Assembly (NCBI GenBank): GCA_965204745.1
Contig: OZ242010.1
Coordinates: 3,659,767-3,723,766, forward strand
DNA: 64,000 bases
Source of the DNA: Candidatus Latescibacterota bacterium
GTDB taxonomy: Bacteria > Latescibacterota > UBA2968
Reading direction: 5' to 3'
Shown: in pieces, positions 804 through 61,904 of the stretch
Layout: the number at the start of each line of letters is the position of its first letter
Position numbering within the stretch: position 1 is the stretch's first letter
Notes under the pieces: generated by a model
What the model was told of the DNA's origin: nothing
Seen by the model: the letters and a program-made list of their open reading frames with translations, nothing else
The model's database searches: none
Made by a program: the position numbers and the translations under genes

Positions 804-825
804 CTGACAACTGACAACTGACAAC
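804..825. repeat. (CTGACAA)x3 heptamer array abutting the IS fragment
   Basis: ctgacaactgacaactgacaac lies directly before ggcgttgttgcataaat, the IS terminal inverted repeat. Confidence 0.8.
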
Positions 826-1250
826 GGCGTTGTTGCATAAATAGCTATTGCCTGCAAGTTGGGATTGCAAAAAGACAAGCTCCTTCGTAGATTGGGCATA
901 TGGAGCACCGAAACCACTCACCCTTTCTCACCAGGAACCTGTCATGCCCAAGATAACCGCTTCCAAGACCGCCGTCAAGGCCCCTCGTCGCCCTCGTCGC
1001 CCGCGCTGTGCGCCTGTCTATCGGGTTCGGAACTGGCCGGCCTACGAGGCCGGTCTCAAGCAGCGGGGCAGTCTGACGTTTTGGATTACACCGCAAGCCC
1101 TTCGGGGGTGGTACCATCAAGGGCCAACGCAACGGGGGAGGCAAAACACCTTTTCAGATTTGGCTATTCAAACGGCACTGATGTTGCGCTTGGTCTCTGC
1201 CTTGCCCCTGCGTCAAACCGAGGGGTTTCTCACGTCCATCCTGGCGCGTG
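826..1250 (+). mobile_element. Truncated IS5-family copy (IR plus the first ~100 codons of the transposase)
   Basis: 826-960 is near-identical to the reverse complement of 31440-31581, the transposase-proximal end of the full IS. MPKITASK...LPLRQTEGFL matches the N-terminus of the 334-aa transposase at 30458..31462. The similarity ends around 1250. Confidence 0.65.
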
Positions 1251-1450
1251 GAGATGACGCGGGAGAGCGTCACACTGCCCACGCACATCCCGGCCATGAA
1301 CGTGCCGAGCAAGATGCCGAGGGAAATGGCCGAAGACCCGACGACGAGTTGCAACATCTGAAACCAGACGATTTCGTAGATGAGCGCGGCACACCCACTG
1401 CCCGCGAACAGGGCGACGAGCAAGGGGAGAAATTTGGGCTTGGCGCGCAT
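1228..1450 (-). pseudogene. 5' remnant of a spermidine-synthase-like polytopic membrane protein gene, interrupted by the IS fragment
   Basis: MRAKPKFLPLLVALFAGSGCAALIYEIVWFQMLQLVVGSSAISLGILLGTFMAGMCVGS resembles the conserved N-terminus of the membrane-bound spermidine synthase-like family. The reading frame then runs into IS-derived sequence. Confidence 0.4.
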
Positions 1451-1533
1451 ATAATCGTTGTCCTTGAATTGTATTTTTCGTAAGTTTAACGACCGCTAGC
1501 GAAGTTGTGCAGCCCTATTTTAAGGAGATCGTC

Positions 1534-2307
1534 ATGCAACTCACGACCGAACAAATCCGCGAATTTTACGAGCGCGGGTACGTCAAAATCCCCGGTGCCA
1601 TCTCGAAGGCGATGGTGGATACGGCGCGGCAGGCCGTCAACCATTCGATTGGCACGCTAGGGCCGAATGGCGAGGATATGTCCAAGCATCGCGCCGCGCA
1701 GTTTTGCCGCGACTTGAATGGCAGTCCCGTGATTATGGACCTGTTCAACAACAGCCCGGTCTGTTCCCTCGCCGAATCCCTGATGGGAGAGGGCAACTTG
1801 CAAAAGCCCATCCAAGGCGCGCAGGTGGCGCCGCGGTTTCCCAATGTCATCGGCAAAGACCCGGCCGAACCGCGGGGGCATCTCGACGGCATGGGCACGG
1901 GCATGAATGGCATGCCCAAAGGCGTGTACCGCCGCGATTTCACCTGTTTTGCCGTCATTTACCTGGCCGATGTGCCCGAGTCCTTTAGCGGCAATTTCAC
2001 GGTTTGGCCGGGGTCGCATCGCTTTTTTGAATCCTACTTCAAGCGCGAGGGGCTCGAAGTGCTCTCCGATGGTACGCCGCATGTGGCATTGCCCGAAGGT
2101 CCGGATATGATCACCGGCAACGCGGGCGATCTCGTTCTCGCACACCACCAGATGGTCCACAGCGCCGGCCCGAATGCGTCTCCCAATATTCGCTATGCGA
2201 CCATTGCCCGCCTCCGCCACGTCGATTGCACTGAAAACGGCAATCGGGGCTTCCTCGACATCTGGCGCGAATTTCCCCGAGTGCGCGAAGTGCTCGCAGC
2301 GGCATAA
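1534..2307 (+). CDS. Phytanoyl-CoA dioxygenase (PhyH) family Fe(II)/2-oxoglutarate oxygenase, paralogue 1
   Basis: RBS taaggagat then ATG at 1534. H-x-D facial-triad motif (PRGHLDG) and a distal His (HHQMVHSAGPN). 45-50% identity to the next gene. Confidence 0.8.
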   Translation: MQLTTEQIREFYERGYVKIPGAISKAMVDTARQAVNHSIGTLGPNGEDMSKHRAAQFCRDLNGSPVIMDLFNNSPVCSLAESLMGEGNLQKPIQGAQVAPRFPNVIGKDPAEPRGHLDGMGTGMNGMPKGVYRRDFTCFAVIYLADVPESFSGNFTVWPGSHRFFESYFKREGLEVLSDGTPHVALPEGPDMITGNAGDLVLAHHQMVHSAGPNASPNIRYATIARLRHVDCTENGNRGFLDIWREFPRVREVLAAA

Positions 2308-2374
2308 TACCAAAGGGATCAGGCGTTGCTTGTCTAAAGCGTTTGGTCCTTTGATGGCGTTGACCGAGGGGACC

Positions 2375-2696
2375 TATCCCCCGGCCCCTTTCCTACGAGG
2401 AAAGGGGAGTAAAGCTCCATTGATGGCTTCTCGCTCTGGTTGCTCTGATGGCGGTGCGCGAGGGCATAAAGCGATTAAAAACCCCTCACACCATCCCCTC
2501 GTAAAACCCATCCGCGTTCCCCCCTTCCTCGCAGGAAGGGGGGTTAGGGGGGTAGGTCCCGATAGGGCATAAAGCGATTAAAAATCCCTCACACCATCCC
2601 CTCGCAAAACCCATCCGCGTTCCCCCCTTCCTCAAAGGCACAGGCGTAGCCTACAACGAAGCGAAGCGAGTAACGGGGGTTAGGGGGCTGGGCGGT
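2375..2696. repeat. Intergenic composite of GC-rich hairpin modules, including a ~104-bp tandem duplication at 2464-2634
   Basis: Palindromes cccctttcctacgaggaaagggg and ccccccttcctcgcaggaagggggg. The gcataaagcgattaaaaa...gcgttcccccc unit occurs twice. The module gcacaggcgtagcctacaacgaagcgaagcgagtaacgggggttaggggg recurs at 8810, 14640, 21060 and 29840 (reverse). Confidence 0.55.
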
Positions 2697-2742
2697 CTGA
2701 CAACTGACAACTGACAACCGACAACCGACAACCGACAACTGA
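2697..2742. repeat. Heptamer array (CTGACAA/CCGACAA) x6-7
   Basis: ctgacaactgacaactgacaaccgacaaccgacaaccgacaactga. Confidence 0.85.
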
Positions 2743-2754
2743 TAGGAGTTCACC

Positions 2755-3531: not shown

Positions 3532-3539
3532 GGTACCCC

Positions 3540-4328: not shown

Positions 4329-4359
4329 GACCAAATCGCCCTTTTTGGTATAACGCCAG

Positions 4360-5208: not shown

Positions 5209-5224
5209 TGTCCTCCTCCTGTTT

Positions 5225-7494: not shown

Positions 7495-7602
7495 AGGGTA
7501 TCCTTTCTCATAATGGGACGGGCAATATAGGGCGTCGTCCAACTGGCAAGCAAGCAGAAAGACGCATGCGCGTTTGGCAGAAGAAATGAAACAAAAACAG
7601 CA

Positions 7603-7703
7603 TTCTGACGTAAAAGGCGATGAGATGGCACCTTGCGTCTTGCCTCTTGCCTCTCACCTCTTGCCTCTTGCCTCGTTCTGACGTAAAAGGCGATGAGATG
7701 GCA
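7603..7703. repeat. 28-bp direct repeats (tctgacgtaaaaggcgatgagatggcac) flanking a CCTCTTG/CCTCTCA heptamer insert
   Basis: Exact duplication at 7603-7630 and 7676-7703, with 45 bp of cttgcctcttgcctctcacctcttgcctcttgcc between them, directly upstream of the RBS of the 7726 gene. Confidence 0.6.
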
Positions 7704-7725
7704 CATTCACACAAAGGAGGGAACG

Positions 7726-8511: not shown

Positions 8512-8894
8512 GCGGTCCGTGCAACGTTGCCCTTCCGCGCCGCCGTGTCTGAATCGCGGATTAAACGGATTAGGGGATTGCGCGGATTACCACCCACCGC
8601 CCTACCGCCATAGACCTATCCCCCCGGCCCCCGTTATTCGCTTCGCTCATTGTAGGCTACGCCTGTGCCTACAAGGAAAGGGGGAGCGCATGGCTTTTTG
8701 AAGGTTTATATCCCTGTCTGTTTTGATGGCTTTGCGCGAATGGATCACGCCATAGAAACCCAAACCCCTCTCGCGTAAATCTCTCGCAAGACCCATCGCC
8801 ATTCCCCCTTGTATCTTCCTCGCAGGCACAGGCGTAGCCTACAACGAAGCGTAGCGAGTAACGGGGATTAGGGGGGTAAGTCCCGATTTGTGCA

Positions 8895-10283: not shown

Positions 10284-10300
10284 GAAATTCTCCTTTCCAT

Positions 10301-10990
10301 TCAGCCGCGTCCATCCGCGGCGTCTGCGATGTAGGTCAAATAGGCGCTGTGCCCGTGCGATACGGGACATGAGATGGGCAAATGCCCGAGGTGTTTTTTG
10401 AGGGTTTTGAGGCGGCCTTTGACCGTGGTCACGCAAAGCGCGATATTTTTATCCCGATTTAAAAATGAAAAATCGTGCAAAAAAATATCCACCCGAGCGG
10501 CCAGTCGGGCCGCGATGAGCGCGTGCCCAATGCGGGTTGCTTCCGATTCAGAGGGCATGGGAATGACCAGGATATGGGGCGCGGATCGCAACGTAGGGGG
10601 AACCGAGATGCCGAGTTCGGTTTTGCCAGTGTTGCGTGCGTCGCAAATTTTTTGCACCACTGCATGGACCAAGAATATTGCGAGGCACAGGATCAGGCCC
10701 ATACCCACATGCTTCATCAACCCGCTGTAAAACGCGCTCTGTTGGGGATCCTCGGCGTGGAAGAACGCATTCTGAAAATGTTCGGGCGATTCCGCGACCA
10801 ATTTTCGGGCGATAACGCGCACTTGTGCGTTCGCCGCAGGGGGCAATGGCGAGACGCGCTCAAAGCCATACAGGGTGCGGATCATCTCTCTCGCGACGCG
10901 CAGGGCCTGTTCCTCCCGCGCAGGGGCCACGGCCCATGCGGTAGCGACCGCGCAAAACCCAACGAGTATGATGGTGCAGATTTTCAACAT
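10301..10990 (-). CDS. Hypothetical signal-peptide/membrane protein
   Basis: MLKICTIILVGFCAVATAWA signal-like N-terminus and an internal TM helix GMGLILCLAIFLVHAVV. No family recognised. The upstream part of the track ORF runs through repeat DNA. Confidence 0.35.
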   Translation of the reverse strand: MLKICTIILVGFCAVATAWAVAPAREEQALRVAREMIRTLYGFERVSPLPPAANAQVRVIARKLVAESPEHFQNAFFHAEDPQQSAFYSGLMKHVGMGLILCLAIFLVHAVVQKICDARNTGKTELGISVPPTLRSAPHILVIPMPSESEATRIGHALIAARLAARVDIFLHDFSFLNRDKNIALCVTTVKGRLKTLKKHLGHLPISCPVSHGHSAYLTYIADAADGRG

Positions 10991-11349
10991 TTTATCGGTC
11001 ACTCCGATCAACGGCCGAGCACGGGGGCATGGAAAAAAAAGGTGAGAGGTGAGAGGCAAGACGGGAGAAGACCTACACTCACTGCTCGCCTTTGGACTGG
11101 CTGTCGCTAGTTGTACCCCGCTCGTGGCTAAACTTGCCTCTTGCCTCTTGCCTCTTGCCTTTTTAGGCGAGCACGGGGCGTCGCCCCTACACATATCGCT
11201 CACCTTTGAACTGGCTATCGCCAGTTGTACCCCGCTCGTGCCTTTTGCGCCTTTTGTGGCTAATCGCCTTTTGTGGCTCACTTCAGGTTGGGTGGGCGGG
11301 TGTGGACTGACCACTGACTACTGACCACTGACTACTGCCTCTTCCCTTT

Positions 11350-14464
<3,115 letters not shown>

Positions 14465-14488: not shown

Positions 14489-14719
14489 AATGCGAATTAA
14501 GAGTAGAAAACGAGTAAGAAGCAAGCCGCGGCCAATCGCCCAAAGACCTCAACGAGTCATCCATTATAGAATCGCCCCTTAGAACTTGTCTGAAAACAAA
14601 CGATGCCCTCTCCTCCGGCTCCTCCCCGCAACGCAGAGACGTTATTCCCCCCTTCCTCGCAGGCACAGGCGTAGCCTACAACGAAGCGTAGCGAGTAACG
14701 GGGGTTAGGGGGGTAGGTC
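14489..14719. mobile_element. Truncated copy of MITE family B (TIR aatgcgaattaagag), next to a (CAGTAGT)x3 array
   Basis: Collinear with the reverse complement of 29781-30054 and with 18942-19269. Only the left TIR is present; the hairpin module A forms the right end. Confidence 0.5.
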
Positions 14720-14721: not shown

Positions 14722-15186
14722 TCATTTTTTTCGCTCGTAATATACCACCGTGAATTGATCGTGCGTCTCTTTTTGCGTTATGACCCATTCCCGTTCATCG
14801 AACTCGGGAAAGTATGCGTCGCCTTCGTACTCCGCGTGGATGTACGACAAAATCATGCGGTCGGCTTTTGGGAGGGTTGCGCGGTAGATTTCACCGCCCC
14901 CGCAGATGAATACCTCCCTGCCGTAAGACTCGGCTTTTTGGATCGCTTCTTTGAGGGACCGGCAAACGTCCACATCTTTTGCTTCGGGCATGGATCGGCT
15001 CACAATCACATGCGGGCGGCCCGGCAGGGGTTTGCTCCCGATAGATCGATAGGTCCTTCGCCCCATCAAAATAACGTGCCCGCTCGTCGTGCGCCGAAAG
15101 TGCTGCGACTCTGCCGATATATGCCAGGGCATTTTGTTGTCTTTCCCAATCACGCGGTTTTTGTCCATAGCTGCGATGATGGTCAT
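14722..15186 (-). CDS. folA: Dihydrofolate reductase
   Basis: MTIIAAMDKNRVIGKDNKMPW...ILMGRRTY typical of DHFR. Confidence 0.85.
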   Translation of the reverse strand: MTIIAAMDKNRVIGKDNKMPWHISAESQHFRRTTSGHVILMGRRTYRSIGSKPLPGRPHVIVSRSMPEAKDVDVCRSLKEAIQKAESYGREVFICGGGEIYRATLPKADRMILSYIHAEYEGDAYFPEFDEREWVITQKETHDQFTVVYYERKK

Positions 15187-15342
15187 GGCGTTTCCTTAGC
15201 TACGATGATGGTCATGGCGTTTCCTCTGAACTGGCTGTCGCCAGTTGTACCCCGCTCGTGCCTTTTGTGGTATCGAAGAACAATTCGGTATTACGCCTAT
15301 CAGTCCGCAGAATTTTCTTTTTATCGTTAAGGAGCGAGAACG

Positions 15343-18730: not shown

Positions 18731-18846
18731 ATGAAAGGCGTGAGACGTGAGACGTGAGACGTGAGATGAAAGGCGTGAGACGTGAGATGAAAGGCGTGAG
18801 ACGTGAGACGTGAGACGTGAAATGAAAGGCGTGAGACGTGAGATGA
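18731..18846. repeat. Tandem array of GTGAGAC heptamers interleaved with the 14-mer gtgagatgaaaggc
   Basis: gtgagacgtgagacgtgagacgtgagatgaaaggcgtgagacgtgagatgaaaggc... The minus-strand ORFs here (SRLTPFISRLT...) are translation artefacts of the repeat. Confidence 0.85.
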
Positions 18847-18941
18847 CCATCATCATTCCGGCGTAGGCAGGCACGCGCAAGCACAACGCAAGTAATCCAG
18901 TGACTTTCCGGCGGTTGGGCGGGGACTGACAACTGACAATG

Positions 18942-19269
18942 CGAATAAAGCGTTGCATCCATTTATTGGGACCTACCCCCCTGGCCCCCCTTCCTCACAG
19001 AAAGGGGGGAATGGCGAGAGGTTGTGCGAGGGGTTTGGGTTTCTAGGGCGTGATCTATTCGCTCAAAGCCATCAGAACAGCTAGGGAGACAAACCTTCAA
19101 AAAGCCATGCGCTCCCCCTTTCCTTGTAGGAAAGGGGGCCGGGGGGATAGGTCCTACGAGAAAGGGGAAGAACATCTCTCGTTGCGGAGATGCGCCGGAT
19201 GACTCGTCCATGTCTTTGGGCGATTGGTCTCGGCTTGCTTCCTACTCGCTTTCTACTCTTTATTCGCAT
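18942..19269. mobile_element. MITE family B copy (TIRs aatgcgaataaag / ctttattcgcatt), embedded between CTGACAA arrays
   Basis: Both TIRs are present. The interior holds hairpin modules (ccccccttcctcacagaaagggggg; cccctttccttgtaggaaaggggg) shared with 29781-30054. Confidence 0.55.
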
Positions 19270-19312
19270 TGACAACTGACCACTGACAACTACCTTCCCA
19301 AAGAAACTCCCC

Positions 19313-20780: not shown

Positions 20781-21242
20781 CTAGGTCGTGTTGACATTTT
20801 ATTTTTTTAGGTCACGCACAGATTAGCAAATGTGTTGCTTGCTCATTTAATGCGTTTCCTTTGATGGCTTCTATCTCTGGTTGCTCTGATGGCGGTGCGC
20901 GTGGGGACTATCCCCCGGCCCCTTTCCTACGAGGAAAGGGGAGTAAAGTGCCTTTGATGGCTTCTCGCTCTGGGTTGCTCTGATGGCGGTGCGCGAGGGC
21001 ATAAAGCGATTAAATATCCCTCATCAATCCCCTCGCAAAACCGCTCACAGTTCCCCCTTCCTCACAGGCACAGGCGTAGCCTACAACGAAGCGAAGCGAG
21101 TAACGGGGGTTAGGGGGGTAGGTCCCGATAAGGAGCGACTGTTCCAGTTTCTCAAATCGAGAGCATATCCTGAGATAGGGCTTGATTTTCTCGATAAACC
21201 GCTCAAGCCGGTGCATGGCTCGTAAATGTCAACATAACCTAG
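20781..21242. mobile_element. MITE family A copy (~460 bp) with 19-bp terminal inverted repeats ctaggtYRtgttgacattt
   Basis: Left end ctaggtcgtgttgacattt (20781-20799); right end the reverse complement of ctaggttatgttgacattt (21224-21242). The interior contains hairpin modules A/B. The 80-aa ORF 20983..21225 is probably not coding. Confidence 0.55.
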
Positions 21243-21740: not shown

Positions 21741-22184
21741 ATGTACCTCCTTTTCTTAATCGTGCTTTTGGGGATGGGATGCGAGGGACAGGACGCGACC
21801 TATCTCACCATCAAAAACCCACGGGTGCGCGAGAACATTCCACCGCAGAGGATCACGGCGGCGTATGTGTCGATCCACAATCGCGGGCCGGCAACCGCGC
21901 TCATCTCTGCATCCACGCCCGCGGCTGAGGTCGCAGAAATCCATGTGATGACCACCGATGGCAATATGATGCGGATGAAAAAAATCAACCGGTTGCCCAT
22001 CCCGGCACGCGGCTCGGCAACCCTACAACCCGGCGGCAATCACCTCATGCTCATCGGCCTCAAGCGCGACCTGACACCGGGCGATTCCCTCGCCCTCACC
22101 CTCACCTTCGCAAATGACCACGTACAGACGGTCTGGGCACACATCCTTTCAACTTCACAGATAAACGCAGATGGACACAGATAG
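21741..22184 (+). CDS. Copper chaperone PCu(A)C (DUF461)
   Basis: Lipoprotein N-terminus. H-x-M ... M-x-M pattern (IHVMTTDGNMMRM) typical of PCuAC. Adjacent to SCO1. Confidence 0.7.
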   Translation: MYLLFLIVLLGMGCEGQDATYLTIKNPRVRENIPPQRITAAYVSIHNRGPATALISASTPAAEVAEIHVMTTDGNMMRMKKINRLPIPARGSATLQPGGNHLMLIGLKRDLTPGDSLALTLTFANDHVQTVWAHILSTSQINADGHR

Positions 22185-22204
22185 AATGCAAAAAATCAAA
22201 GTAT

Positions 22205-22530
22205 TATTTTTTTCGCACCTGTCAGGGCAACGATGGATCGGTCAACACACCCGTCAGGGCAACGATGGATCGGTCAACGCACCCGGCGGCGTGGGGATAG
22301 GTTGGAAACGCACAAGGCGGCGCAGAGGTAGGTTGGGCACGCACATGGCGGCGCGGTGGCGAGGTTGGGCACGTACAAGGCGGCGTGGTGGCAGGACAGG
22401 GAACGCACAAGGCGGCGTGGTGGCAGGACAGGGAACGCACAAGGCGGCGTGGCGGCGAGGCGGGGAACGCACAAGGCGGCGAGGCGGCAGGACAGGGAAC
22501 GCACAAGGCGGCGAGGCGGCGAGGCGGGGC
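22205..22530. repeat. ~32-bp minisatellite, ~10 degenerate tandem copies (gcacaaggcggcgtggtggcaggacagggaac)
   Basis: Units share the gcacaaggcggcg core and diverge gradually. The region is stop-free in all six frames. Repeats are contiguous with no spacers, so this is not CRISPR. Confidence 0.7.
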
Positions 22531-23112
22531 CTGCTCTTTACACTCTGCACCCTACACTTGTTTTTAGTCGCCTGTCAACCCCTTGAACGCACGCCGCAAG
22601 TCGATTCCGATCTCGCGCTTTCCGCTGAACCGTATGCTTTTGGGGGCGATTTTACGCTGATCGATCACGATGGCAATGCCTTCCGCTTGGCGGAGCAACA
22701 GCGTCCGTTTTTCCTCTTTTTGGGCTATGCGAGTTGTCCGGATGCCTGCCCGCAAACGCTGGCGCGTCTCGCCCGCGTGTACGCGCTTTTGGGCGAGGAG
22801 GCACGCGATCTCGGCACGCTTTTTGTCAGCGTGGATGCCGAACGCGATTCGCCCGCTGTGCTCAAAACCTATTTGTCGCACTTTGACGTGCCCGCCATTG
22901 GCCTGACCGGGGCGCAGGATAGTATTGACGCGGTGGTCAAACGCTATGCTGCCCACTATGAAATCAACGATCAGGCATCCGCCGCGGGGTATCTCATCGA
23001 CCATTCGCTCTACATCTACCTCATCGATCAACACGGCGATTCGCGCTTCTTCTTTCGCCCCTCGCATACCGCCGAAGAAATCGCCACCGTCGCCCGACAG
23101 TTGTTTCGCTAA
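22531..23112 (+). CDS. SCO1/SenC family copper chaperone (thioredoxin-like); 5' boundary uncertain
   Basis: C-x-x-x-C-P motif (ASCPDACP). Lipoprotein-like LLFTLCTLHLFLVAC. The only in-frame starts are CTG at 22531 or an ATG deep inside the minisatellite. Confidence 0.6.
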   Translation: MLFTLCTLHLFLVACQPLERTPQVDSDLALSAEPYAFGGDFTLIDHDGNAFRLAEQQRPFFLFLGYASCPDACPQTLARLARVYALLGEEARDLGTLFVSVDAERDSPAVLKTYLSHFDVPAIGLTGAQDSIDAVVKRYAAHYEINDQASAAGYLIDHSLYIYLIDQHGDSRFFFRPSHTAEEIATVARQLFR

Positions 23113-25746: not shown

Positions 25747-25793
25747 CGCGCGACTAGACGCCCCCCGCTGACCGCTTGGAGGCTTGGGATTAA

Positions 25794-25892
25794 CTGACAA
25801 CTGACAACTGACAACTGACAACTGACAACTGACAACTGACAACTGACAACTGACAACTGACAACTGACAACTGACAACTGACAACTGACAAC
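25794..25892. repeat. (CTGACAA)x14 perfect heptamer tandem array
   Basis: 99 bp of uninterrupted ctgacaa at the right edge of the methyltransferase islet, upstream of lgt. Confidence 0.95.
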
Positions 25893-25980
25893 TTGAGAGG
25901 AACAGCGCGGTGGCCTTCTCCCGTCTCCCCTCTTGCCTCTTGCCTCTCCCGTCTTCCCTCTACCCTCTTCCCTTCACCTC

Positions 25981-29780: not shown

Positions 29781-30054
29781 AATGCGAATTAAGAGTTGAA
29801 TCCATTGCGTACTTGTCTTTTTTTGGACCTACCCCCCTAACCCCCGTTACTCGCTACGCTTCGTTGTAGGCTACGCCTGTGCCTGCGAGGAAGGGGGGAA
29901 TAACATCTCTCCGTTGCGGGGATGAACCGGAGGAGGGAACATCGTTTTTTTTAGACAAGTTCTAAGGGGCGATCCTATAATGGATGAGTCGTTCATGTCT
30001 TTGGACGATTGGTTGCGGCTTGCTTCTTACTCGCTTTCTACTCTTAATTCGCAT
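29781..30054. mobile_element. MITE family B copy with intact TIRs aatgcgaattaagag / ctcttaattcgcatt
   Basis: Reverse-complement collinear with 14489-14719 and 18942-19269. Contains hairpin module A. Confidence 0.55.
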
Positions 30055-30134: not shown

Positions 30135-30173
30135 GACTGACTACTGACTACTGACTACTGACTACTGACTACT
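30135..30173. repeat. (CTGACTA)x5 heptamer array
   Basis: gggactgactactgactactgactactgactactgactacttgg. Confidence 0.9.
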
Positions 30174-30403
30174 TGGGGTGCTAGGCGGTCCTCTTGTATC
30201 TTTGGGCGAGCACGGGGGCATCGCCCCTACATATATATCGCTCACCTTTGAACTGGCTATCGCCAGTTGTACACCGCTCGTGCCTTCTGTGCCTTTTGTG
30301 GCTAAAATCCCGTCTTCCCTCTCCCGTCTCACTTGCGGAAGGGCGGCGCGGGGACTGACAACTGACAACTGACAACTGACAACTGACAACTGACAACTGA
30401 CAA

Positions 30404-31581
30404 CGGCGTTGTTGCATAAATGTTGTCGTGGCTAAGTTCGTCCCTTTCCCGCGAAATTTAAGCCCTTCTTTCTATGGGATAGGACACGGGTTTCGCGATC
30501 CTCATCATGCGATTGAGCACCGCACATCCCAACCGTGCTTCCGTTTCTTGGTTCTTCTTTTTTCGTGCGCGCAACTGCCGCCCAATGAGTTGTTTGTAGC
30601 GGCCTATGTGGGTTTCAACGACCGAGCGACGATGATAGCCACTGGTGCGTTTCCACTGTCGGCGGCCTTGACGCCGGATGGCTCGGATGATTTCATCGCG
30701 GGCGAGGGGGGGTGCCTTCCTGTTTCCGTGTTGTTCAATTTTGGCATCATGGCGCGGGGGAATCAGAGGTCGGATGGGGGCTCCTTGTTTGGGGGCGGCG
30801 CATGTGTTGAAGACCTTGCGTTTGTCATAGCCGCCATCGGCGCCCAGCGTATGGACAGGGGCCGGGACTTGATCGAGCAAGGGGTTGACCTGCGAAGCGT
30901 CATCAACGCTTGCCGAGGTCAGGGTCTGTGCGACAATCTCCCCGGTGGCCTCATCGACGCCGATGTGCAATTTGCGCCAAGTCCGGCGCTTGCAAAAGCC
31001 GTGTTGACGCACCTTCCATTCGCCTTCGCCATACACTTTCAGGCCGGTAGAATCCACCACCAAGTGGATCGGCTCGTGACGGGATTGGACAGGTAAATCC
31101 ACGTTCAAATCGCCCTGTCGCCGGCAGAGGGTCGTGTGATCGGGCACACGCAAATCCACCCCCATCAATGCCAGGATGGACTTGAGAAACCCCTCGGTTT
31201 GACGCAGGGGCAAGGCATAGACCAAGCGCACCATCAATGCCGTTTGAATAGCCAAATCTGAAAAGGTGTTTTGCCGCCCCCGTTGCGTTGGCCCTTGATG
31301 GTACCAGTTCCGAAGGGCTTGCGGCGTGATCCAAAACGTCAGACTGCCCCGCTGCTTGAGACCGGCCTCGTAGGCCGCCCAGTTCCTAACCCGATAGACA
31401 GGCGCACAGCGCGGGCGACGCGGGGACTTGACGGCGGGTTTGGAAGCGGTTATCTTGGGCATGACAGGTTCCTGGTGAGAAAGGGTGAGTTGTTTTGGTG
31501 ATCTATATGCCCAATCTACGAAGGAGCCTGTCTTTTTGCAATCCCAACTTGCAGGAAATTGCTATTTATGCAACAACGCCA
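30404..31581 (-). mobile_element. Complete IS5-family insertion sequence (~1.18 kb), inserted in a (CTGACAA)n array
   Basis: Perfect 17-bp terminal IRs ggcgttgttgcataaat (30404-30420) and atttatgcaacaacgcc (31565-31581). (CTGACAA)x7 on both flanks; removing the IS plus one AC restores the heptamer phase, consistent with a 2-bp duplication. Confidence 0.8.
30458..31462 (-). CDS. IS5-family DDE transposase
   Basis: 334 aa, MPKITASKPAVKSPRRPRCAPVYRVRNWAAYEAGLKQRG... typical IS5-family N-terminus. Confidence 0.85.
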   Translation of the reverse strand: MPKITASKPAVKSPRRPRCAPVYRVRNWAAYEAGLKQRGSLTFWITPQALRNWYHQGPTQRGRQNTFSDLAIQTALMVRLVYALPLRQTEGFLKSILALMGVDLRVPDHTTLCRRQGDLNVDLPVQSRHEPIHLVVDSTGLKVYGEGEWKVRQHGFCKRRTWRKLHIGVDEATGEIVAQTLTSASVDDASQVNPLLDQVPAPVHTLGADGGYDKRKVFNTCAAPKQGAPIRPLIPPRHDAKIEQHGNRKAPPLARDEIIRAIRRQGRRQWKRTSGYHRRSVVETHIGRYKQLIGRQLRARKKKNQETEARLGCAVLNRMMRIAKPVSYPIERRA

Positions 31582-31650
31582 CTGACAACTGACAACTGAC
31601 AACTGACAACTGACAACTGACAACTGACAACTGACCACTGGAGCCTCTCT

Positions 31651-41569: not shown

Positions 41570-41810
41570 AACTCCTCCAACCCCAAGTAGTCAGTAGTCA
41601 GTTGTCAGTCCCCGCACCGCCCTTCCGCAAGTGAGACGTGAGACGCAAGAGGGCCACCCGGCACCCCAAGTGGTCAGTGGTTAGCCCCCGCCCAACTCCT
41701 CCAACCCCAAGTAGTCAGTAGTCAGTAGTCAGTCCCCGCACCGCCCTTCCGCAAGTGAGACGTGAGACGCAAGACGGGAGAGGGCCACCCAGCACCCCAA
41801 GCACTCAGTG
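41570..41810. repeat. Tandem duplication of a ~120-bp composite unit ((CAGTAGT)n + ccccgcaccgcccttccgcaagtgagacgtgagacgcaaga...gagggccacc.agcaccccaag)
   Basis: Two adjacent copies, a third at 42600-42730, and reverse-orientation copies at 30062-30135 and 30311-30354. Confidence 0.7.
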
Positions 41811-42565: not shown

Positions 42566-42858
42566 AAGACACGACAAGGAGTGCGAATGGGCAAACCCTG
42601 CCCAACCGCTGCGCCCAAGTAGTCAGTAGTCAGTGGTCAGTGGTCAGTGGTCAGTCCCCGCACCGCCCTTCCGCAAGTGAGACGTGAGACGCAAGACAGG
42701 AGAGGCCCGCCCAGCACCCCAAGCGGTCAGCGGTCAGTGGTCAGCCCACCCCGCCGCCCTGTCTCATTAGTCGTAGGGAGTTGCCTCTCAAGGCCGTTCA
42801 ACGGTCAGTTGTCACCCCGTTCTCTTTCATCTTTCAACCGATCTCTTTGGAGTCCATC

Positions 42859-49730: not shown

Positions 49731-49753
49731 TCCAAACCCCAAGCGGTTGGCGA

Positions 49754-53730: not shown

Positions 53731-53733
53731 CGC

Positions 53734-54810: not shown

Positions 54811-54827
54811 GGTGATCCTCCAAAAAA

Positions 54828-56057: not shown

Positions 56058-56385
56058 AACCCTCCCTCGATGCGATGGGTTGACAAGAATAAGACGGGGG
56101 TTATATTGTGCTGTGCAAGCGCGGAGAGCGCATCTCTCTGGCGCGTGCGCGCGGATGATCGGCGATGGCCAGGCAAGTCAGAACCGATCATCCTTTTTTT
56201 GTCAGTTGGGCTTTATTGTTTTACTAATAAAACAACCGCCCAAAGAATAAAACAGATGTTAAAACTTGTCAACAATTTTTTGCAATCATCGCCGTTCATC
56301 CCTGCTTACCACGCAGAGACATGCCTGTGGTTGCTTTTTTCGCTTTTCAAAACGCTTGAATTTTCAGCCTAAGCGCGTATTTTAG

Positions 56386-56504
56386 CAAGAGGCAAGAGGC
56401 AAGAGGCAAGAGGCAAGAGGCAAGAGGCAAGAGGCAAGAGGCAAGAGGCAAGAGGCAAGAGGCAAGAGGCAAGAGGCAAGAGGCAAGAGGCAAGAGGCAA
56501 GAGG
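56386..56504. repeat. (CAAGAGG)x17 heptamer array abutting the RBS of the downstream oxidoreductase gene
   Basis: The array ends ...caagaggCAAGGAGatcgacATG; the last unit grades into the AAGGAG Shine-Dalgarno of the 56518 gene. Confidence 0.95.
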
Positions 56505-56517
56505 CAAGGAGATCGAC

Positions 56518-57495
56518 ATGTCGAATGGATTAAAGGTCGCGGTGATCGGGGCGAGTGGCATTGGGCAACACCACGCGCGATGGCATCACTTGTCCGGGTC
56601 TCAAGTGGTGGCATTTGCAGGCACGTCGAAAGAAACGTGTGCGAAAACCCGATCCCTGTTGCAGGCGGACTTTGGCTTTGATGGCCGTGCGTACACGGAC
56701 GTGGCGCGCATGCTCAAAGCCGAACAACCCGACGTGGTCGATGTGTCTAGCCCGCCGCATTTGCACAAAGACCACGCGATTTTGGCATTGCAAAGCGGAT
56801 GCCATGTGGTGTGTGAAAAACCCCTGTGTTGGGACGAGGACAAGGGCTTGGACGCGATTTTGGACGATGGACGCGCCGTGGTGGATGCGGCGAAACAGGC
56901 GGGCAAATCCCTGGCGATGTCTGCCCAATATGCCGCGGCGATCCCGATGTATCGCCAACTCTACACGCGGGCGAGAGGCGCGTGGGATCGCGTTGACTCG
57001 GTCGAGATGGTCATGGAATCGAAGGGGCGCAGGGGGCCGAAAGCGCGAGAAGAGATCTGGATCGATCTCGCTTCCCATCCCTTGAGCTTGGTCTTTGGCT
57101 TTTTGCCCGATGGGGAAATCGACTGGTCGAGCGCGGCGTGTGAGATTGGCGAGCGGGAAAATCGCGCACGATTTGACGTGCTCACGCCCAAAGGCCGATG
57201 CGCCGTGCAATTCGCGTTGCGCGACAGGGACGAGGGCGTCCCCATCCGACAATTCGGCGTCAATGGCTTTTTGGTCAACTGGGAGGGCTTTGCCGACGAG
57301 GAGGGGATTTATCGCGCACGCCTCTCAGCCGATGGCGAGACCGCGACTTGCCCGGATTTTATGCACATTTTCATCGGCGAATTTGCCGAGCACATCCGCG
57401 GCACAGGCGGGCAGGTCATCGTTTCCGGCGCGGACGCCCTGAAGAATTTGCAGGCTCAAATCGCGCTGCTCAAGCGCGCGGACAGGCGGGTGTGA
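56518..57495 (+). CDS. Gfo/Idh/MocA family oxidoreductase
   Basis: VAVIGASGIGQHHA Rossmann fold. VVCEKP. Confidence 0.8.
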   Translation: MSNGLKVAVIGASGIGQHHARWHHLSGSQVVAFAGTSKETCAKTRSLLQADFGFDGRAYTDVARMLKAEQPDVVDVSSPPHLHKDHAILALQSGCHVVCEKPLCWDEDKGLDAILDDGRAVVDAAKQAGKSLAMSAQYAAAIPMYRQLYTRARGAWDRVDSVEMVMESKGRRGPKAREEIWIDLASHPLSLVFGFLPDGEIDWSSAACEIGERENRARFDVLTPKGRCAVQFALRDRDEGVPIRQFGVNGFLVNWEGFADEEGIYRARLSADGETATCPDFMHIFIGEFAEHIRGTGGQVIVSGADALKNLQAQIALLKRADRRV

Positions 57496-57499
57496 TCCC

Positions 57500-60452: not shown

Positions 60453-60480
60453 CTGCAGACAAACGAGGAGAGCGTTTGCA

Positions 60481-61410
60481 ATGGAAGCTATGCGTCCAAA
60501 CCGGTCTTTGAAAAGCTACTTCGGAATCGCGCTCAGGGGCGTGTGCATGGGTTCAGCCGATGTCGTGCCCGGGGTGTCGGGCGGCACGATGGCACTGATC
60601 ACAGGCATTTACGAAGAGTTGATTCTGTCGATTCGATCCTTCGATGCACGGGCACTGCGGCTTTTGATGGGGCTTCGGATCAAAGACCTGTTCGGTTACG
60701 TGCGCTGGCCTTTTTTGTGCGCCCTGCTCATGGGGATTCTCTTGGCGATTTTTTCCCTGTCGCGTGCGATTACCTATTTGTTGGAAAACGAGCCGGTTTT
60801 GCTGTGGGCGTTTTTCTTTGGGCTGGTGTTGGCGTCTGTTTATACGGTGGGCAAGCGCGTTCCGCAGTGGCATTGGCGAACTGTTTTGGGCGCGGTTGGC
60901 GCGACCCTGGGCGCGTATTTTCTCGTGGGCTTGGTGCCGGTTGAAATGCCGCACGGGCCACCGTATATTTTTTGTTCGGCTGTGATTGCGATTTGCGCGA
61001 TGATTTTGCCGGGTATTTCCGGGTCCTTTGTGTTGGTCTTGCTCGGGCAGTATGCGTATATTTTGAACGCGGTCAATACGCGCGATCTGTTCGTCATCGC
61101 GGTCTTTGGCGCGGGCGCTGTGGTCGGGCTGATGGCATTTGCGCGCGTTCTGGGCTGGTTTTTTCAGCGGTATCACGACTTGACTATCGCGCTGTTGACC
61201 GGGCTGATGCTCGGCTCGCTCAGGAAAATTTGGCCGTGGAAAGAAACGATAGAGACGATAGTCAATCGGCACGGCGAGGAAGTGCCCTTGGTTCAGGTGA
61301 ACGTGCTACCCGAGACGTGGACGAGTGAAGTGATGGGTGCGCTCGGCCTCGCGCTTTTTGGGCTGATGCTCGTACTGGTGCTCGAGCGTTTGGCCCAGTC
61401 CAAGGAATAA
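60481..61410 (+). CDS. DUF368 family polytopic membrane protein (candidate undecaprenyl-phosphate translocase family)
   Basis: GVSGGT and GISGS motifs in a repeated half-topology. Confidence 0.65.
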   Translation: MEAMRPNRSLKSYFGIALRGVCMGSADVVPGVSGGTMALITGIYEELILSIRSFDARALRLLMGLRIKDLFGYVRWPFLCALLMGILLAIFSLSRAITYLLENEPVLLWAFFFGLVLASVYTVGKRVPQWHWRTVLGAVGATLGAYFLVGLVPVEMPHGPPYIFCSAVIAICAMILPGISGSFVLVLLGQYAYILNAVNTRDLFVIAVFGAGAVVGLMAFARVLGWFFQRYHDLTIALLTGLMLGSLRKIWPWKETIETIVNRHGEEVPLVQVNVLPETWTSEVMGALGLALFGLMLVLVLERLAQSKE

Positions 61411-61471
61411 TACCTCAGCGAATCAACGAATCAACGAAGTGCGTCGGGTTTTGGGGCTGTTGGGCGGGGAC

Positions 61472-61762
61472 TGACTACTGACTAGGTTCTGTTGACATTT
61501 ACGAGCAAAGCAACTGGCTTGAGCGGTTTTGCGAGGGGGACCTACCCCCTAACCCCCTTCCTAAGAGGAAGGGGGAACGGTGATGGGTCTTCCGAGGGAT
61601 TGCTCGAGAGGTTTTTTGGGTTCTATGGCGTGATCCATTCGCCCAAAGCCATCAAAGGAGCTTTACTCCCCTTTCCTCGTAGGAAAGGGGCCGGGGGATA
61701 GGTCCCCTCGCGCTTTGCTAATCTGTGCGTAACGTGAAAAAAATGAAATGTCAACACAACCT
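61472..61762. mobile_element. MITE family A copy (~290 bp, internally deleted, reverse orientation), flanked by CTGACTA arrays
   Basis: TIR ctaggttctgttgacattt (61472-61490) and aaatgtcaacacaacctac (61744-61762). Interior shares hairpin modules with 20781-21242. Confidence 0.5.
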
Positions 61763-61904
61763 ACTGACTACTGACCACTTGGTGGTCGGGTTGGGCGGGA
61801 AACTTGCTACGCATGTGGTCTATTTTTGATTGTGCTTGACGGGGTTGCGTCTTGAAACTTAACATTGTCCCTCCACTTTTAACCCTTAATTCATCGAGGT
61901 AAAT

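What the first reader, a model, noticed from the sequence alone, without database searches (positions are those of the whole stretch)
804..61790. Pervasive heptanucleotide tandem arrays (CTGACAA, CTGACTA, CTGACCA, CAAGAGG, GTGAGAC): STRR-like repeats in a GC-rich genome
At least 17 separate arrays of 3 to 17 perfect 7-bp units occur in 64 kb. Examples: 804, 2697, 7631, 11041, 11127, 11301, 14465, 18731, 18925, 19270, 25794, 30135, 30355, 31582, 41587, 41711, 42619, 56386, 61462, 61763. Almost all lie in intergenic DNA. The units are strand-asymmetric, sharing a CTGAC core with a variable sixth base. This density recalls cyanobacterial STRR heptamers but in an otherwise non-cyanobacterial, GC-rich gene context. 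I do not recall such a system being described for such lineages.
Basis: seen in the sequence. Interest (0 to 1): 0.6.

Follow-up and report, generated by a model that had tools for sequence, protein, structure and literature searches.

The report
Hypervariable seven-base repeats at gene boundaries
The window, from an uncultured Latescibacterota bacterium, is full of real, fast-changing 7-base tandem repeats that sit between genes, mostly just before start codons; this kind of repeat is already known from cyanobacteria, giant sulfur bacteria, Bacteroidetes and Xanthomonas, and its function is still unknown.

Summary
There are 14 perfect period-7 arrays of at least 3 copies, against 0 expected by chance and at most 1 for any other period from 4 to 12. 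All 14 lie in the 16% of the window that is intergenic.

The host is a Latescibacterota bacterium with a 5.48-Mb chromosome and 57% GC. The units fall into two families: NNACTGA (read here as ACTGAC[A/T/C]) and pyrimidine-rich TCTYNCS (TCTTGCC, TCTCACG and others). A sister genome carries exact (TAACTGA)5.7 at an orthologous site, so family 1 matches the TAACTGA repeats described by MacGregor in 2015.

The arrays are hypervariable. One locus has 2, 3, 9, at least 11, 17.7 and 43 copies in six assemblies whose flanking gene is 98-99% identical.

Family-1 arrays point their 3' end at a start codon. The forward:reverse counts are 17:2 in metagenome contigs and 51:8 in viral contigs. Less often they point at the stop of a convergent gene.

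Genes preceded by arrays have the least-structured initiation regions in the window, often with no Shine-Dalgarno motif. An IS5-family element and MITE-like elements have inserted into arrays.

Best reading: slippage-driven microsatellites that probably serve as structure-free leaders.

The parts
803..825 (+). (ACTGACA)3.3, family 1; its 3' end is joined to a truncated IS copy
2697..2742 (+). (CTGACAA)3 followed by (CCGACAA)3; ends 12 nt before ATG 2755, with AGGAG in between
11306..11337 (+). (ACTGACC/ACTGACT)4.6; its 3' end lies 13 nt from the stop of the convergent gene 11350-12405(-); identical in L093
14465..14489 (-). (ACTGACT)3.6 abutting the bioA ATG (14464) with no Shine-Dalgarno motif
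18925..18939 (+). (ACTGACA)2.1; left half of an array split by a MITE-like insert
19270..19291 (+). TGACAAC/TGACCAC x3.1; right half of the split array, 21 nt before ATG 19313 (pectate lyase)
25792..25893 (+). (AACTGAC)14.6, forward to lgt (ATG 25981)
25917..25973 (+). degenerate pyrimidine heptamers (TCTCCCG, TCTTGCC, TCTTCCC...) running up to the lgt start
30136..30173 (+). (ACTGACT)5.4 inside a composite module (G-box, array, TTGGGGTGC box)
30354..30404 (+). (ACTGACA)7.3; left part of an array interrupted by the IS
31581..31640 (+). (ACTGACA)8.6; right part of the same array, 10 nt before ATG 31651
41586..41609 (-). (ACTGACT)3.4 in composite module copy 1
41710..41733 (-). (ACTGACT)3.4 in composite module copy 2 (124-nt spacing)
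42618..42655 (-). (ACTGACC)3.9 plus (ACTGACT)2.4; its 3' end lies 53 nt after the stop of the SRAP gene; the module is present in 0, 1 or 2 copies in relatives
42722..42745 (-). (CTGACCG/CTGACCA)3.4
61470..61484 (+). (ACTGACT)2.1 preceded by a G-box
61761..61779 (+). (CTACTGA)2.7, forward to ATG 61905
7632..7674 (+). (CTTGCCT)6.1, family 2, 18 nt before ATG 7693; L093 has 3 units fewer
11040..11056 (-). (CTCACCT)2.4, family 2 (reads AGGTGAG on +), followed by a T-run; upstream of the gene whose likely start is at 10992(-)
11133..11160 (+). (CTTGCCT)4.0, family 2; identical in L093
18739..18843 (-). (GTCTCAC)n, family 2 (reads CGTGAGA on +), interspersed with ATGAAAG units; absent from L093
41631..41645 (-). 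(GTCTCAC)2.1 of composite module
41755..41781 (-). (GTCTCAC)3.9 (imperfect) of composite module
42677..42691 (-). (GTCTCAC)2.1 of composite module
56385..56508 (-). (CTCTTGC)17.7, family 2 (reads GCAAGAG on +, sense to the GFO-type oxidoreductase gene); ends 9 nt before ATG 56518; 2 to 43 copies in relatives
30405..31580 (-). IS5-family insertion sequence (17-bp inverted repeats GGCGTTGTTGCATAAAT) inserted in the (ACTGACA)n array
826..1245 (+). truncated second copy of the same IS, in opposite orientation, joined to an array at the same phase (CTGACAAC|GGCGTT)
18940..19268 (.). 329-bp MITE-like element (terminal inverted repeats TGCGAATAAAG) splitting a heptamer array; absent from L093
29783..30053 (.). 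271-bp MITE-like element (13-bp perfect terminal inverted repeats TGCGAATTAAGAG) carrying TAGACA-N18-TATAAT; followed by TTGACCACTGACC
14491..14710 (.). one-ended copy of the MITE-like element between the bioA array and the upstream gene; absent from L093 and L214

Best explanation
These are genuine, hypervariable heptanucleotide microsatellites of an already described class: TAACTGA-type direct repeats, STRR and 'long simple sequence repeats'. Here they occur in an uncultured Latescibacterota species.

Shown:
- There are two unit families, NNACTGA (ACTGAC[A/T/C], and exact TAACTGA in a sister genome) and pyrimidine-rich TCTYNCS.
- Arrays gain and lose whole 7-nt units, and swap unit variants, between genomes that are 97-99% identical. 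This fits replication slippage or unequal recombination.
- Arrays are confined to intergenic DNA. A 7-nt period shifts the reading frame, and three ACTGACN units place a TGA in every frame.
- Family-1 arrays are polar. Their 3' end abuts either the start codon of a co-directional gene or, less often, the stop of a convergent gene.
- On the sense strand the arrays carry one G or none per unit and are predicted to be unstructured.

Inferred:
- Arrays before start codons are transcribed as the last part of the 5' leader.
- There they give a structure-free, often Shine-Dalgarno-less initiation region. The 30S subunit, possibly through protein S1, can load on it without base pairing to 16S rRNA.
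- Copy number acts as a quickly mutating modulator of expression, not as an on/off switch.
- Because the arrays are dispersed and near-identical, they also act as recombination joints and landing pads for an IS5-family element and MITE-like elements.
For: Reality and excess:
- 14 arrays against 0 expected, and period 7 only.
- all 14 arrays are intergenic.
- density is 21.9 per 100 kb here and 23.4 in L093, against 0.7 in other Latescibacterota genera and 0.2 in other phyla.

Hypervariability:
- (GCAAGAG)n has 2.1, 3.4, 9.1, at least 11, 17.7 and 43.0 copies in six assemblies, with the adjacent gene 98.4-99.2% identical.
- 4 of 7 arrays in the stretch shared by the window and L093 differ, at 97-98.5% flank identity.
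- The composite module is present in 0, 1 or 2 copies.

Link to the known family:
- L093 has (TAACTGA)5.7 within the orthologous array.
- CAACTGA differs from TAACTGA by 1 nt.

Polarity:
- In the window, arrays end 0, 10, 12 and 21 nt before the ATGs at 14464, 31651, 2755 and 19313.
- In metagenome contigs, an ATG-initiated ORF of at least 100 codons starts within 30 nt of the array in 17 forward against 2 reverse cases (52 arrays, p=7e-4).
- In IMG/VR contigs the counts are 51 against 8 (145 arrays, p=9e-9).
- 15 of the 17 metagenome cases lack an SD-like motif.

Structure:
- The bioA leader plus start (61 nt) folds at 0 kcal/mol.
- The six array-preceded genes rank 1, 2, 3, 5, 6 and 11 of 45 for the weakest -40..+20 folding (Mann-Whitney p=1.4e-4).

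A property, not a motif, is retained:
- Five related genomes all have a heptamer array abutting the bioA ATG and no SD.
- Three of them use ACTGACN and two use TCTYCCG.

Mobile elements in arrays.

Literature:
- PMC4679880 reports the same position and orientation and the same lack of ribosome-binding sites for TAACTGA.
- That mRNAs without SD depend on low structure around the start codon is established knowledge.
Against: - No expression or binding data exist for this uncultured organism. Transcription of the arrays and any effect on translation are inferred.
- Within the window alone the orientation bias is not significant: 5 forward against 2 reverse in informative co-directional gaps.
- Half of the array-preceded genes do have an SD after the array (2755, 31651, 56518).
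- Low predicted structure follows automatically from the G-poor composition. Shuffles fold equally weakly, so it is a property, not proof of selection.
- Arrays that follow stop codons in reverse orientation (11306, 42618; 15 of 52 and 33 of 144) are not explained by a start-site role.
- Several arrays lie 90-140 nt from the nearest start.
- A filter that merely removes harmful placements could produce the same polarity without any function.
- Some viral loci in the orientation test are duplicates of the same phage.
Confidence: 0.55

Rival explanations
1. Neutral or selfish by-product. A lineage-specific tendency to 7-nt slippage, together with the spread of composite intergenic modules and MITE-like elements, creates arrays that have no function. 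The observed positions and polarity only reflect which placements are tolerated. Forward ACTGACN arrays carry stops in all frames and cannot create upstream ORFs or N-terminal extensions, whereas other placements are removed by selection.
For: - Copy number varies extremely with no visible constraint, from 2 to 43.
- Modules are present or absent between strains.
- Arrays are embedded in a mosaic of other dispersed repeats.
- The neighbouring genes share no functional theme: bioA, lgt, GFO oxidoreductases, PhyH, sulfatases.
- Close Latescibacterota genera lack the arrays.
- Mrazek's polymerase-slippage explanation for period 7 is cited in PMC4679880 and PMC4692102.
Against: - The same polarity and tight spacing to the ATG (0-16 nt) recur in unrelated GC classes and in viral contigs.
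- The bioA start keeps an abutting array in five genomes even though the unit family changed.
- Essential genes depend on these leaders with no SD.
- The NNACTGA core recurs across phyla (PMC4679880).
Confidence: 0.3
2. The arrays are multivalent binding sites for a dedicated trans-acting protein, such as a Csp-, CsrA- or S1-like RNA binder or a DNA-binding regulator. They would then form a post-transcriptional regulon, as MacGregor proposed for TAACTGA.
For: - The ACTGA core is conserved while positions 6-7 vary.
- Arrays sit where the ribosome-binding site would be.
- In this lineage a conserved G-rich box (GGGCGGNGNGGGG) precedes many arrays.
- This is the hypothesis stated in PMC4679880.
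Against: - Two unrelated unit families replace each other at the same gene start.
- Copy number is unconstrained.
- No candidate protein was identified, and the question cannot be tested with sequence alone.
Confidence: 0.15
3. The arrays are classical contingency loci. Slippage in the arrays switches the adjacent genes on and off (phase variation), as in Haemophilus, Neisseria or Moraxella.
For: - Strong length polymorphism between near-identical strains.
- There are precedents for 5'-UTR repeats that tune expression (Moraxella uspA2, cited in PMC4679880; Haemophilus, PMC12721329, abstract).
Against: - Arrays are neither inside ORFs nor between -35 and -10 elements, so changes of 7 nt cannot shift a reading frame or a promoter spacer.
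- The neighbouring genes are housekeeping or metabolic, not surface or restriction-modification genes.
- The same units occur at many loci.
Confidence: 0.1
4. The primary role is at the DNA level. Dispersed identical arrays at gene boundaries (forward before starts, reverse after stops) would serve as recombination sites that shuffle intergenic cassettes or genes, and as safe landing pads for mobile elements.
For: - The bioA upstream region was replaced exactly at the array.
- A 60-nt segment was deleted at an array edge.
- An IS5-family element is joined to arrays twice at the same phase, in both orientations.
- MITE-like elements have inserted in arrays.
- In viral contig L240 every gene is flanked by inverted arrays.
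- MacGregor makes a similar suggestion for long arrays.
Against: - Recombination and insertion at repeats are expected consequences of any dispersed repeat and need not be the selected function.
- This role does not explain the tight spacing to ATGs.
Confidence: 0.1
5. The arrays are assembly artefacts from collapsed or mis-joined reads.
For: Short-read contigs break inside the long arrays.
Against: The arrays are found at orthologous sites in at least seven independent assemblies. These include two single-contig chromosomes of 5.48 and 5.28 Mb, and the flanks align cleanly.
Confidence: 0.01

Closest known systems
TAACTGA direct repeats of marine Beggiatoaceae, some cyanobacteria and Bacteroidetes (MacGregor 2015, PMC4679880)
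   Same: - The period is 7 and the ACTGA core is the same. CAACTGA, CTACTGA and CCACTGA here are 1-2 nt away from TAACTGA, and exact (TAACTGA)5.7 occurs in sister genome L093.
- The repeats are intergenic and point forward at a start codon a few nt away, often with no ribosome-binding site.
- Forward units carry stop codons in all frames.
- Indels between strains come in 7-nt steps.
- Arrays are mixed with other heptamers in long intergenic regions.
- The neighbouring genes share no functional theme.
   Different: - The host phylum is Latescibacterota and the genome has 57% GC.
- The dominant unit has C instead of T at position 1.
- Arrays here are longer (up to 14.6 units, against 2-6 in BOGUAY).
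- They are usually preceded by a G-rich box and embedded in a ~124-bp composite module.
- A second, pyrimidine-rich family can substitute at the same site.
Cyanobacterial STRR (short tandemly repeated repetitive) heptamers
   Same: Both are tandem 7-bp units in intergenic DNA, abundant and lineage-specific, with function unknown. Proposed roles include transcript stability and translational coupling (PMC2670836).
   Different: - The host is not a cyanobacterium.
- The classical STRR units, recalled from memory as CCCCAGT, TTGGTCA and CAACAGT, could not be verified in the paper library and are not the units found here.
- The closest is the reverse complement of TTGGTCA, one base from CCACTGA in register.
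Long simple sequence repeats of 5-11 nt (Mrazek et al. 2007) and the intergenic GGGAATC heptamers of Xanthomonas (PMC4692102)
   Same: - Heptamers are the over-represented period.
- The repeats are intergenic.
- Length and sequence vary extensively between close relatives.
- They occur in GC-rich non-cyanobacterial genomes.
- Polymerase slippage is the proposed origin.
   Different: - The Xanthomonas and Nostoc units studied there are G-rich and form quadruplexes.
- The units here are G-poor on the sense strand and predicted to be unstructured.
Phase-variable simple sequence repeats (contingency loci) of Haemophilus, Neisseria and Moraxella
   Same: Both are slippage-prone tandem repeats near gene starts with strain-to-strain changes in copy number.
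   Different: - The unit here is 7 nt rather than 1-5 nt.
- The arrays are not in ORFs or promoter spacers.
- They sit next to housekeeping genes.
- The same unit occurs at many loci.
REP/BIME and MITE-type intergenic mosaics, including insertion sequences that target repeats
   Same: The arrays are part of dispersed composite modules with presence/absence polymorphism, and insertion sequences and MITE-like elements have inserted into them.
   Different: The core here is a tandem microsatellite, not a palindromic unit. No transposase of the REP-associated type was seen in the window.

Membership tests
TAACTGA-type heptanucleotide direct repeats (MacGregor 2015) | Tandem direct repeats of TAACTGA, sometimes split by related 7-mers | tested here: met
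   The window units CAACTGA, CTACTGA and CCACTGA differ by 1-2 nt. Exact (TAACTGA)5.7 lies between (CCACTGA) and (CAACTGA) runs in the orthologous array of L093.
TAACTGA-type heptanucleotide direct repeats (MacGregor 2015) | Predominantly intergenic | tested here: met
   14 of 14 arrays of at least 3 copies are intergenic, in a window that is 84% coding.
TAACTGA-type heptanucleotide direct repeats (MacGregor 2015) | Forward orientation, ending within a few nt of a start codon | tested here: met
   In the window the gaps are 0, 10, 12 and 21 nt at four genes. Metagenome contigs give 17 forward against 2 reverse, and viral contigs 51 against 8. Within the window alone the co-directional gaps give only 5 against 2.
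TAACTGA-type heptanucleotide direct repeats (MacGregor 2015) | No canonical ribosome-binding site between the repeat and the start | tested here: inconclusive
   SD is absent at bioA, lgt and pectate lyase but present at 2755, 31651 and 56518. It is absent in 15 of 17 metagenome cases.
Cyanobacterial STRR | Host is a (mostly heterocystous) cyanobacterium | tested here: not met
   The nearest CysS relatives are Candidatus Latescibacterota MAGs. The gene content is sulfatases, a TonB-dependent receptor and a pectate lyase.
Cyanobacterial STRR | Unit is one of the STRR heptamers | tested here: not met
   None of the remembered STRR units occurs as an array here. The STRR unit sequences come from memory and could not be verified.
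Long simple sequence repeats (Mrazek 2007) | Unit of 5-11 nt in arrays longer than expected by chance | tested here: met
   14 arrays of at least 3 copies against 0.0 in simulations.
Phase-variable contingency locus | Repeat lies in an ORF or between promoter elements, so that unit changes switch expression | tested here: not met
   The arrays lie outside ORFs. They abut start codons, downstream of the best promoter-like sites.
Phase-variable contingency locus | Copy number differs between closely related strains | tested here: met
   2.1 to 43 copies at one locus, and 4 of 7 loci differ between the window and L093.
Phase-variable contingency locus | Associated with surface, virulence or restriction-modification genes | tested here: not met
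   The neighbours are bioA, lgt, GFO/IDH/MocA oxidoreductases, PhyH and an amidohydrolase.
CRISPR array | Repeats of 24-48 nt separated by unique spacers | tested here: not met
   The units are 7 nt, arranged head to tail, with no spacers.
Structured non-coding RNA family | Match to a curated family, or a fold significantly more stable than shuffles | tested here: not met
   There are no Rfam matches at gathering score. The composite modules fold no better than shuffles, with z from +0.3 to +1.5.

The most novel reading that the evidence does not exclude
NNACTGA arrays are a cross-phylum gene-boundary element that is shared with phages. In forward orientation just before a start codon they would act as a Shine-Dalgarno-independent pad for ribosome loading, or for termination and re-initiation. 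Such a pad has a TGA in all three frames, a G-poor structure-free stretch, and then the ATG. In reverse orientation just after a stop codon they would pair with the next forward array to punctuate transcripts. On this reading the 7-nt period is selected because it cycles a stop codon through all three frames, and copy number gives heritable, rapidly evolving tuning of translation.
Probability: 0.15. Interest if true: 0.75.

Novelty: new member of a known kind. Interest (0 to 1): 0.45.

Why it matters
The function of bacterial heptamer arrays has been open since they were described in cyanobacteria more than thirty years ago.

This locus extends the TAACTGA-like class to a candidate phylum with no cultured members. 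It also supplies a natural allelic series that could be used directly in reporter or toeprint experiments:
- the same gene starts carry 2 to 43 units;
- the unit families differ between genomes at the same start;
- the upstream cassette is present in some genomes and absent in others.

Two further observations make the translation-leader hypothesis concretely testable:
- Two unrelated G-poor heptamer families replace each other in front of bioA.
- ACTGAYN arrays show the same polarity in hundreds of environmental and viral contigs.

In practical terms, such arrays break short-read assemblies and can mislead gene callers. Examples are start codons called inside arrays, and the different product lengths called for the same gene in relatives (348 against 325 aa, and 535 against 455 aa).

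Tried and rejected
- **tRNA and Rfam scans** of the window found nothing.
- **Exact look-up of CysS** found no record. The source genome was found through other proteins instead.
- **Folding the composite modules and array-containing leaders as RNA** gave no structure beyond shuffles. The exceptions were weak purine/pyrimidine array pairings at 7595-7700 and 56440-56530 (z about -2.3), which I did not pursue. I therefore dropped the idea of a structured RNA or of a G-box/pyrimidine hairpin.
- **Sigma-70 promoter and intrinsic terminator scans** were at chance level overall. I used only a few top hits, as hints.
- **BLAST of the 80 metagenome loci against the window** matched only the arrays themselves. 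These loci are therefore not close relatives and could not be used as orthologues.
- **Classifying the upstream context of those loci** (operon-internal or promoter-proximal) with stop-to-stop ORFs was uninformative in GC-rich DNA.
- **Complementarity of the units to the 3' end of 16S rRNA** was considered by eye. I rejected it for ACTGACN, where only UGAUC variants would pair.
- **A -35-like reading of CTGACA** was rejected, because arrays abut the ATG and leave no room for a -10 element and a transcript start.
- **Replichore orientation** could not be tested. GC skew changes sign several times in 64 kb.
- **The classical STRR unit sequences** could not be confirmed in the paper library.
- **The target-site duplication of the IS and the MITE-like elements** could not be resolved, because the periodic target makes 2, 9, 16... 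bp equally consistent.

Full report

Yes.
- Tandem Repeats Finder lists 28 period-7 rows among 66.
- A strict count of perfect tracts gives 14 arrays of at least three copies at period 7, and none or one at every other period from 4 to 12.
- One hundred first-order Markov simulations of the window gave no array of at least 3 copies. They gave on average 4.1 tracts of at least 2 copies, against 36 observed.
Five of them have only 2.1-3.1 copies, and the 18731 array is compound.
- I built a gene map from codon bias, Pfam and NCBIfam hits and gene calls in relatives. On that map all 14 arrays of at least 3 copies lie in the 16% of the window that is non-coding.

**2. Whose genome is it?**

- The genes are sulfatases, bioA/bioD, rimO, cysS, lgt, a pectate lyase, a TonB-dependent receptor and many GFO/IDH/MocA and PhyH enzymes.
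- CysS is 83-86% identical to Candidatus Latescibacterota MAGs and about 60% identical to Planctomycetota. Latescibacterota belongs to the FCB group.
- Exact look-ups place the window on a 5,482,115-bp contig held by NCBI and ENA. A sister genome of 5,279,007 bp and dozens of related metagenome contigs also exist.
- GC content is about 0.57.
- The repeat density is lineage-specific:

| Source | Arrays of at least 3 copies per 100 kb |
|---|---|
| Window | 21.9 |
| Sister genome (L093) | 23.4 |
| 285 kb from other Latescibacterota genera (GC about 0.50) | 0.7 |
| 938 kb from other phyla | 0.2 |

**3. Anatomy**

The units fall into two families.
- **Family 1** is ACTGAC[A/T/C], with occasional ACCGACA. 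In another register this reads CAACTGA, CTACTGA or CCACTGA.
- **Family 2** is pyrimidine-rich TCTYNCS: TCTTGCC, TCTCACG, TCTCACC, TCTCCCG and TCTTCCC.

Both families have one G or none per unit on the strand named.

Most family-1 arrays are preceded by a G-rich box (GGGCGGNGNGGGG or TTGGGCGGGG) and followed by ACTTGGGG....

In several gaps the elements form a ~124-bp composite module: G-box, (ACTGACN)n, TTGGGGTGC.GG box, then pyrimidine heptamers. The module itself repeats.

The arrays lie in a wider mosaic of dispersed intergenic repeats, including REP-like palindromes and a 100-nt family.

**4. Dynamics (shown)**

Locus L093 from the sister genome aligns to window 3478-23976 at 97-98.5% identity. 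Of seven arrays in that stretch, three are identical and four differ:
- 7632: 6 units against 3.
- The bioA array: (ACTGACT)3.6 against (ACTGACA)4.4, with a different upstream flank.
- The pectate-lyase array: a split 2.1 + 3.1 against an uninterrupted (ACTGACC)5.7(ACTGATA)5.7(ACTGACA)3.6.
- The GTGAGAC block at 18739: absent from L093.

ACTGATA in tandem is TAACTGA, so the sister genome carries the exact unit described in the literature.

Upstream of the oxidoreductase gene at 56518, (GCAAGAG)n varies widely while the gene stays 98.4-99.2% identical:

| Assembly | Copies of GCAAGAG |
|---|---|
| L217 | 2.1 |
| L082 | 3.4 (plus 2 after an interruption) |
| L219 | 9.1 |
| L218 | at least 11 (contig ends in the array) |
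| Window | 17.7 |
| L220 (5.28-Mb genome) | 43.0 |

Two of these alleles, the window and L218, have also lost a 60-nt segment at the array edge.

In the gap after the SRAP gene the composite module is present in 0, 1 or 2 copies in different strains.

Short-read contigs end inside long arrays. These comparisons also rule out an assembly artefact.

**5. Position and polarity**

In the window, family-1 arrays end close to four start codons:
- 0 nt before the bioA ATG;
- 10 nt before ATG 31651;
- 12 nt before ATG 2755;
- 21 nt before ATG 19313.

Others point at a start 87-136 nt away (lgt, 41450, 61905).

Two point the other way and sit just after a stop: 11306, 13 nt from the stop of 11350-12405(-), and 42618, 53 nt after the SRAP stop. 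Counting only co-directional gaps, this is 5 forward against 2 reverse, which is not significant alone.

To obtain independent loci I scanned public collections for four ACTGACN units.
- IMG/VR gave 89 stretches.

| Test | Metagenome contigs | Viral contigs |
|---|---|---|
| Evaluable arrays | 52 | 145 |
| ATG-initiated ORF of at least 100 codons starting within 30 nt, array forward: reverse | 17: 2 (p=7e-4) | 51: 8 (p=9e-9) |
| Long open frame ending within 40 nt before the array, array reverse: forward | 19: 1 | 47: 12 |

- Fifteen of the 17 forward metagenome cases have no SD-like motif between array and ATG.
- The start-codon and stop-codon sets overlap little.
- The 3' end of the ACTGACN strand is therefore what faces a gene. 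Usually it faces a start, and sometimes the stop of a convergent gene.
- Caveats: ORFs were called crudely, some viral loci are duplicates, and degenerate array units may themselves provide the stop.

**6. Physical properties**

- Three ACTGACN units place a TGA in each reading frame. This follows directly from the sequence and, together with the frame shift caused by a 7-nt period, explains their exclusion from genes.
- The arrays are predicted to be unstructured. The 61 nt spanning the bioA leader and start fold at 0 kcal/mol, and the 91 nt around ATG 31651 at -5.1 kcal/mol.
- Among 45 gene starts in the window, the six preceded by arrays rank 1, 2, 3, 5, 6 and 11 for the weakest folding of -40..+20. 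The median is -9.7 kcal/mol and Mann-Whitney p=1.4e-4. The top three (bioA, lgt, pectate lyase) have no SD.
- The composite modules fold no better than shuffles, and Rfam finds nothing.

**7. A telling comparison**

Five genomes whose BioA proteins are at least 90% identical all have a heptamer array running up to the bioA ATG, and none has an SD.
- Three carry ACTGACN: the window, L093 and L214. L214 adds (ACTCACT) units.
- Two carry TCTYCCG pyrimidine arrays: L215 and L216.

What is retained is a G-poor, repeat-built leader and not a particular motif. This argues against a single sequence-specific binding protein. It fits a requirement for an open initiation region. That SD-less mRNAs depend on low structure around the start codon is established knowledge.

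**8. Mobile elements**

- An IS5-family insertion sequence (NF033579) occupies 30405-31580 inside an (ACTGACA)n array. Its 17-bp inverted repeats are perfect.
- A truncated second copy at 826-~1245 lies in the opposite orientation. It is joined to an array at the same phase, CTGACAAC|GGCGTT.
- MITE-like elements of 271-329 bp (terminal inverted repeats TGCGAATWAAG) sit at 18940-19268 and 29783-30053, with a one-ended copy at 14491. Each abuts ACTGACN units.
- The sister genome has the uninterrupted array at the pectate-lyase site and lacks the element upstream of bioA.
- The element carries the best sigma-70-like matches in the window, TAGACA-N18-TATAAT, facing the array and the gene. This is a hint that the arrays are transcribed as leader. 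Promoter scans overall were at chance level.

**9. Mechanism**

Shown:
- The arrays are slippage-type microsatellites confined to intergenic DNA.
- They are polar with respect to genes.
- They are unstructured on the sense strand.
- They are hypervariable.
- They are sites of rearrangement and insertion.

Inferred (my estimate is about 0.4 for the functional part):
- Arrays in front of start codons form the last part of the 5' leader.
- They give an open, often SD-less ribosome-loading region.
- Copy number acts as a fast-mutating modulator of expression.

Rivals:
- A neutral by-product plus a filter on tolerated placements.
- A dedicated binding protein.
- Phase variation.
- A primarily recombinational role.

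The reverse arrays after stop codons, and arrays far from any start, are not explained by the leader model.

**10. Comparison with what is known**

- The closest described system is the TAACTGA direct repeats of Beggiatoaceae, some cyanobacteria and five Bacteroidetes (PMC4679880). They share the core, the polarity, the frequent lack of a ribosome-binding site, the 7-nt indels between strains and the unresolved function.
- Heptamers as the dominant long simple-sequence repeat, and the slippage explanation, go back to Mrazek et al. 2007, as summarised in PMC4679880 and PMC4692102.
- GC-rich Xanthomonas has its own intergenic heptamers, which vary between strains (PMC4692102).
- A preprint on Nostoc reports heptamer arrays close to start codons or promoters that affect expression of recF and recO (10.1101/2022.06.06.494920).

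What is new here:
- The phylum.
- The C-for-T unit variants.
- The G-box and composite-module packaging.
- The interchangeability of two unit families at one start codon.
- The quantified polarity in metagenomic and viral contigs.
- The use of arrays as IS and MITE insertion sites.

**11. Verdict**

This is a real and well-supported feature, and a new member of a known kind. It is of moderate interest, mainly because the allelic series makes a long-standing question testable.

Noticed in passing
window 30405-31580 and 826-1245: An IS5-family insertion sequence with 17-bp perfect inverted repeats sits inside an (ACTGACA)n array. A truncated second copy, in the opposite orientation, is joined to another array at exactly the same phase (CTGACAAC|GGCGTT). 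This suggests sequence-specific targeting of the heptamer.
   Followed up: partly
window 18940-19268, 29783-30053, 14491-~14710: MITE-like elements of 271-329 bp with terminal inverted repeats TGCGAATWAAG. Each abuts ACTGACN units and carries an outward-facing TAGACA-N18-TATAAT promoter-like site. They are absent from the orthologous sites of the sister genome.
   Followed up: partly
L240 (IMG/VR contig, 9.1 kb), whole locus: Nearly every intergenic gap consists of one or more reverse ACTGAYN arrays after the upstream gene, followed by a forward array just before the next start. Most genes are therefore flanked by inverted heptamer arrays, with at least 18 arrays in 9 kb.
   Followed up: partly
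window 22276-22529: A 32-bp tandem repeat of about 8 copies (AACGCACAAGGCGGCG...) lies inside ORF 22171-23112, which has no Pfam or NCBIfam match. Its period is not a multiple of three, so the ORF call there is doubtful.
   Followed up: no
window 2385-2646, 14647-14671, 18985-19138, 20919-21076, 61552-61697: REP-like palindromes (CCCCCCTTCCTCGCAGGAAGGGGGG and variants, at least 8 copies) and a ~100-nt dispersed family (2479-2692, 8770-8880, 14607-14717, 21012-21122) fill many intergenic regions.
   Followed up: no
window 7601-7700 and 15164-15225: Short tandem duplications of translation-start regions. TTCTGACGTAAAAGGCGATGAGATGGCAC occurs on both sides of the 7632 heptamer array, and is also duplicated in L093. 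A 29-nt unit containing an ATG is duplicated at the start of the DHFR-like gene 14722-15186.
   Followed up: partly
L082 1990-2090, L219, L220; window 11030-11160: A purine heptamer array (GCAAGAG)n is followed by an inverted pyrimidine heptamer run and then a T-tract. This forms a terminator-like hairpin in the leader of the oxidoreductase gene. The window allele and L218 have deleted it.
   Followed up: partly
window 10437-10992: The gene upstream of the 11040-11337 arrays most likely starts at ATG 10992 (MLKICTIILVGFCAVATAWA, a signal-peptide-like N-terminus). The mechanical ORF 10301-11314 runs through the arrays, and the sulfatase ORF start at 10436 is probably too far upstream.
   Followed up: partly
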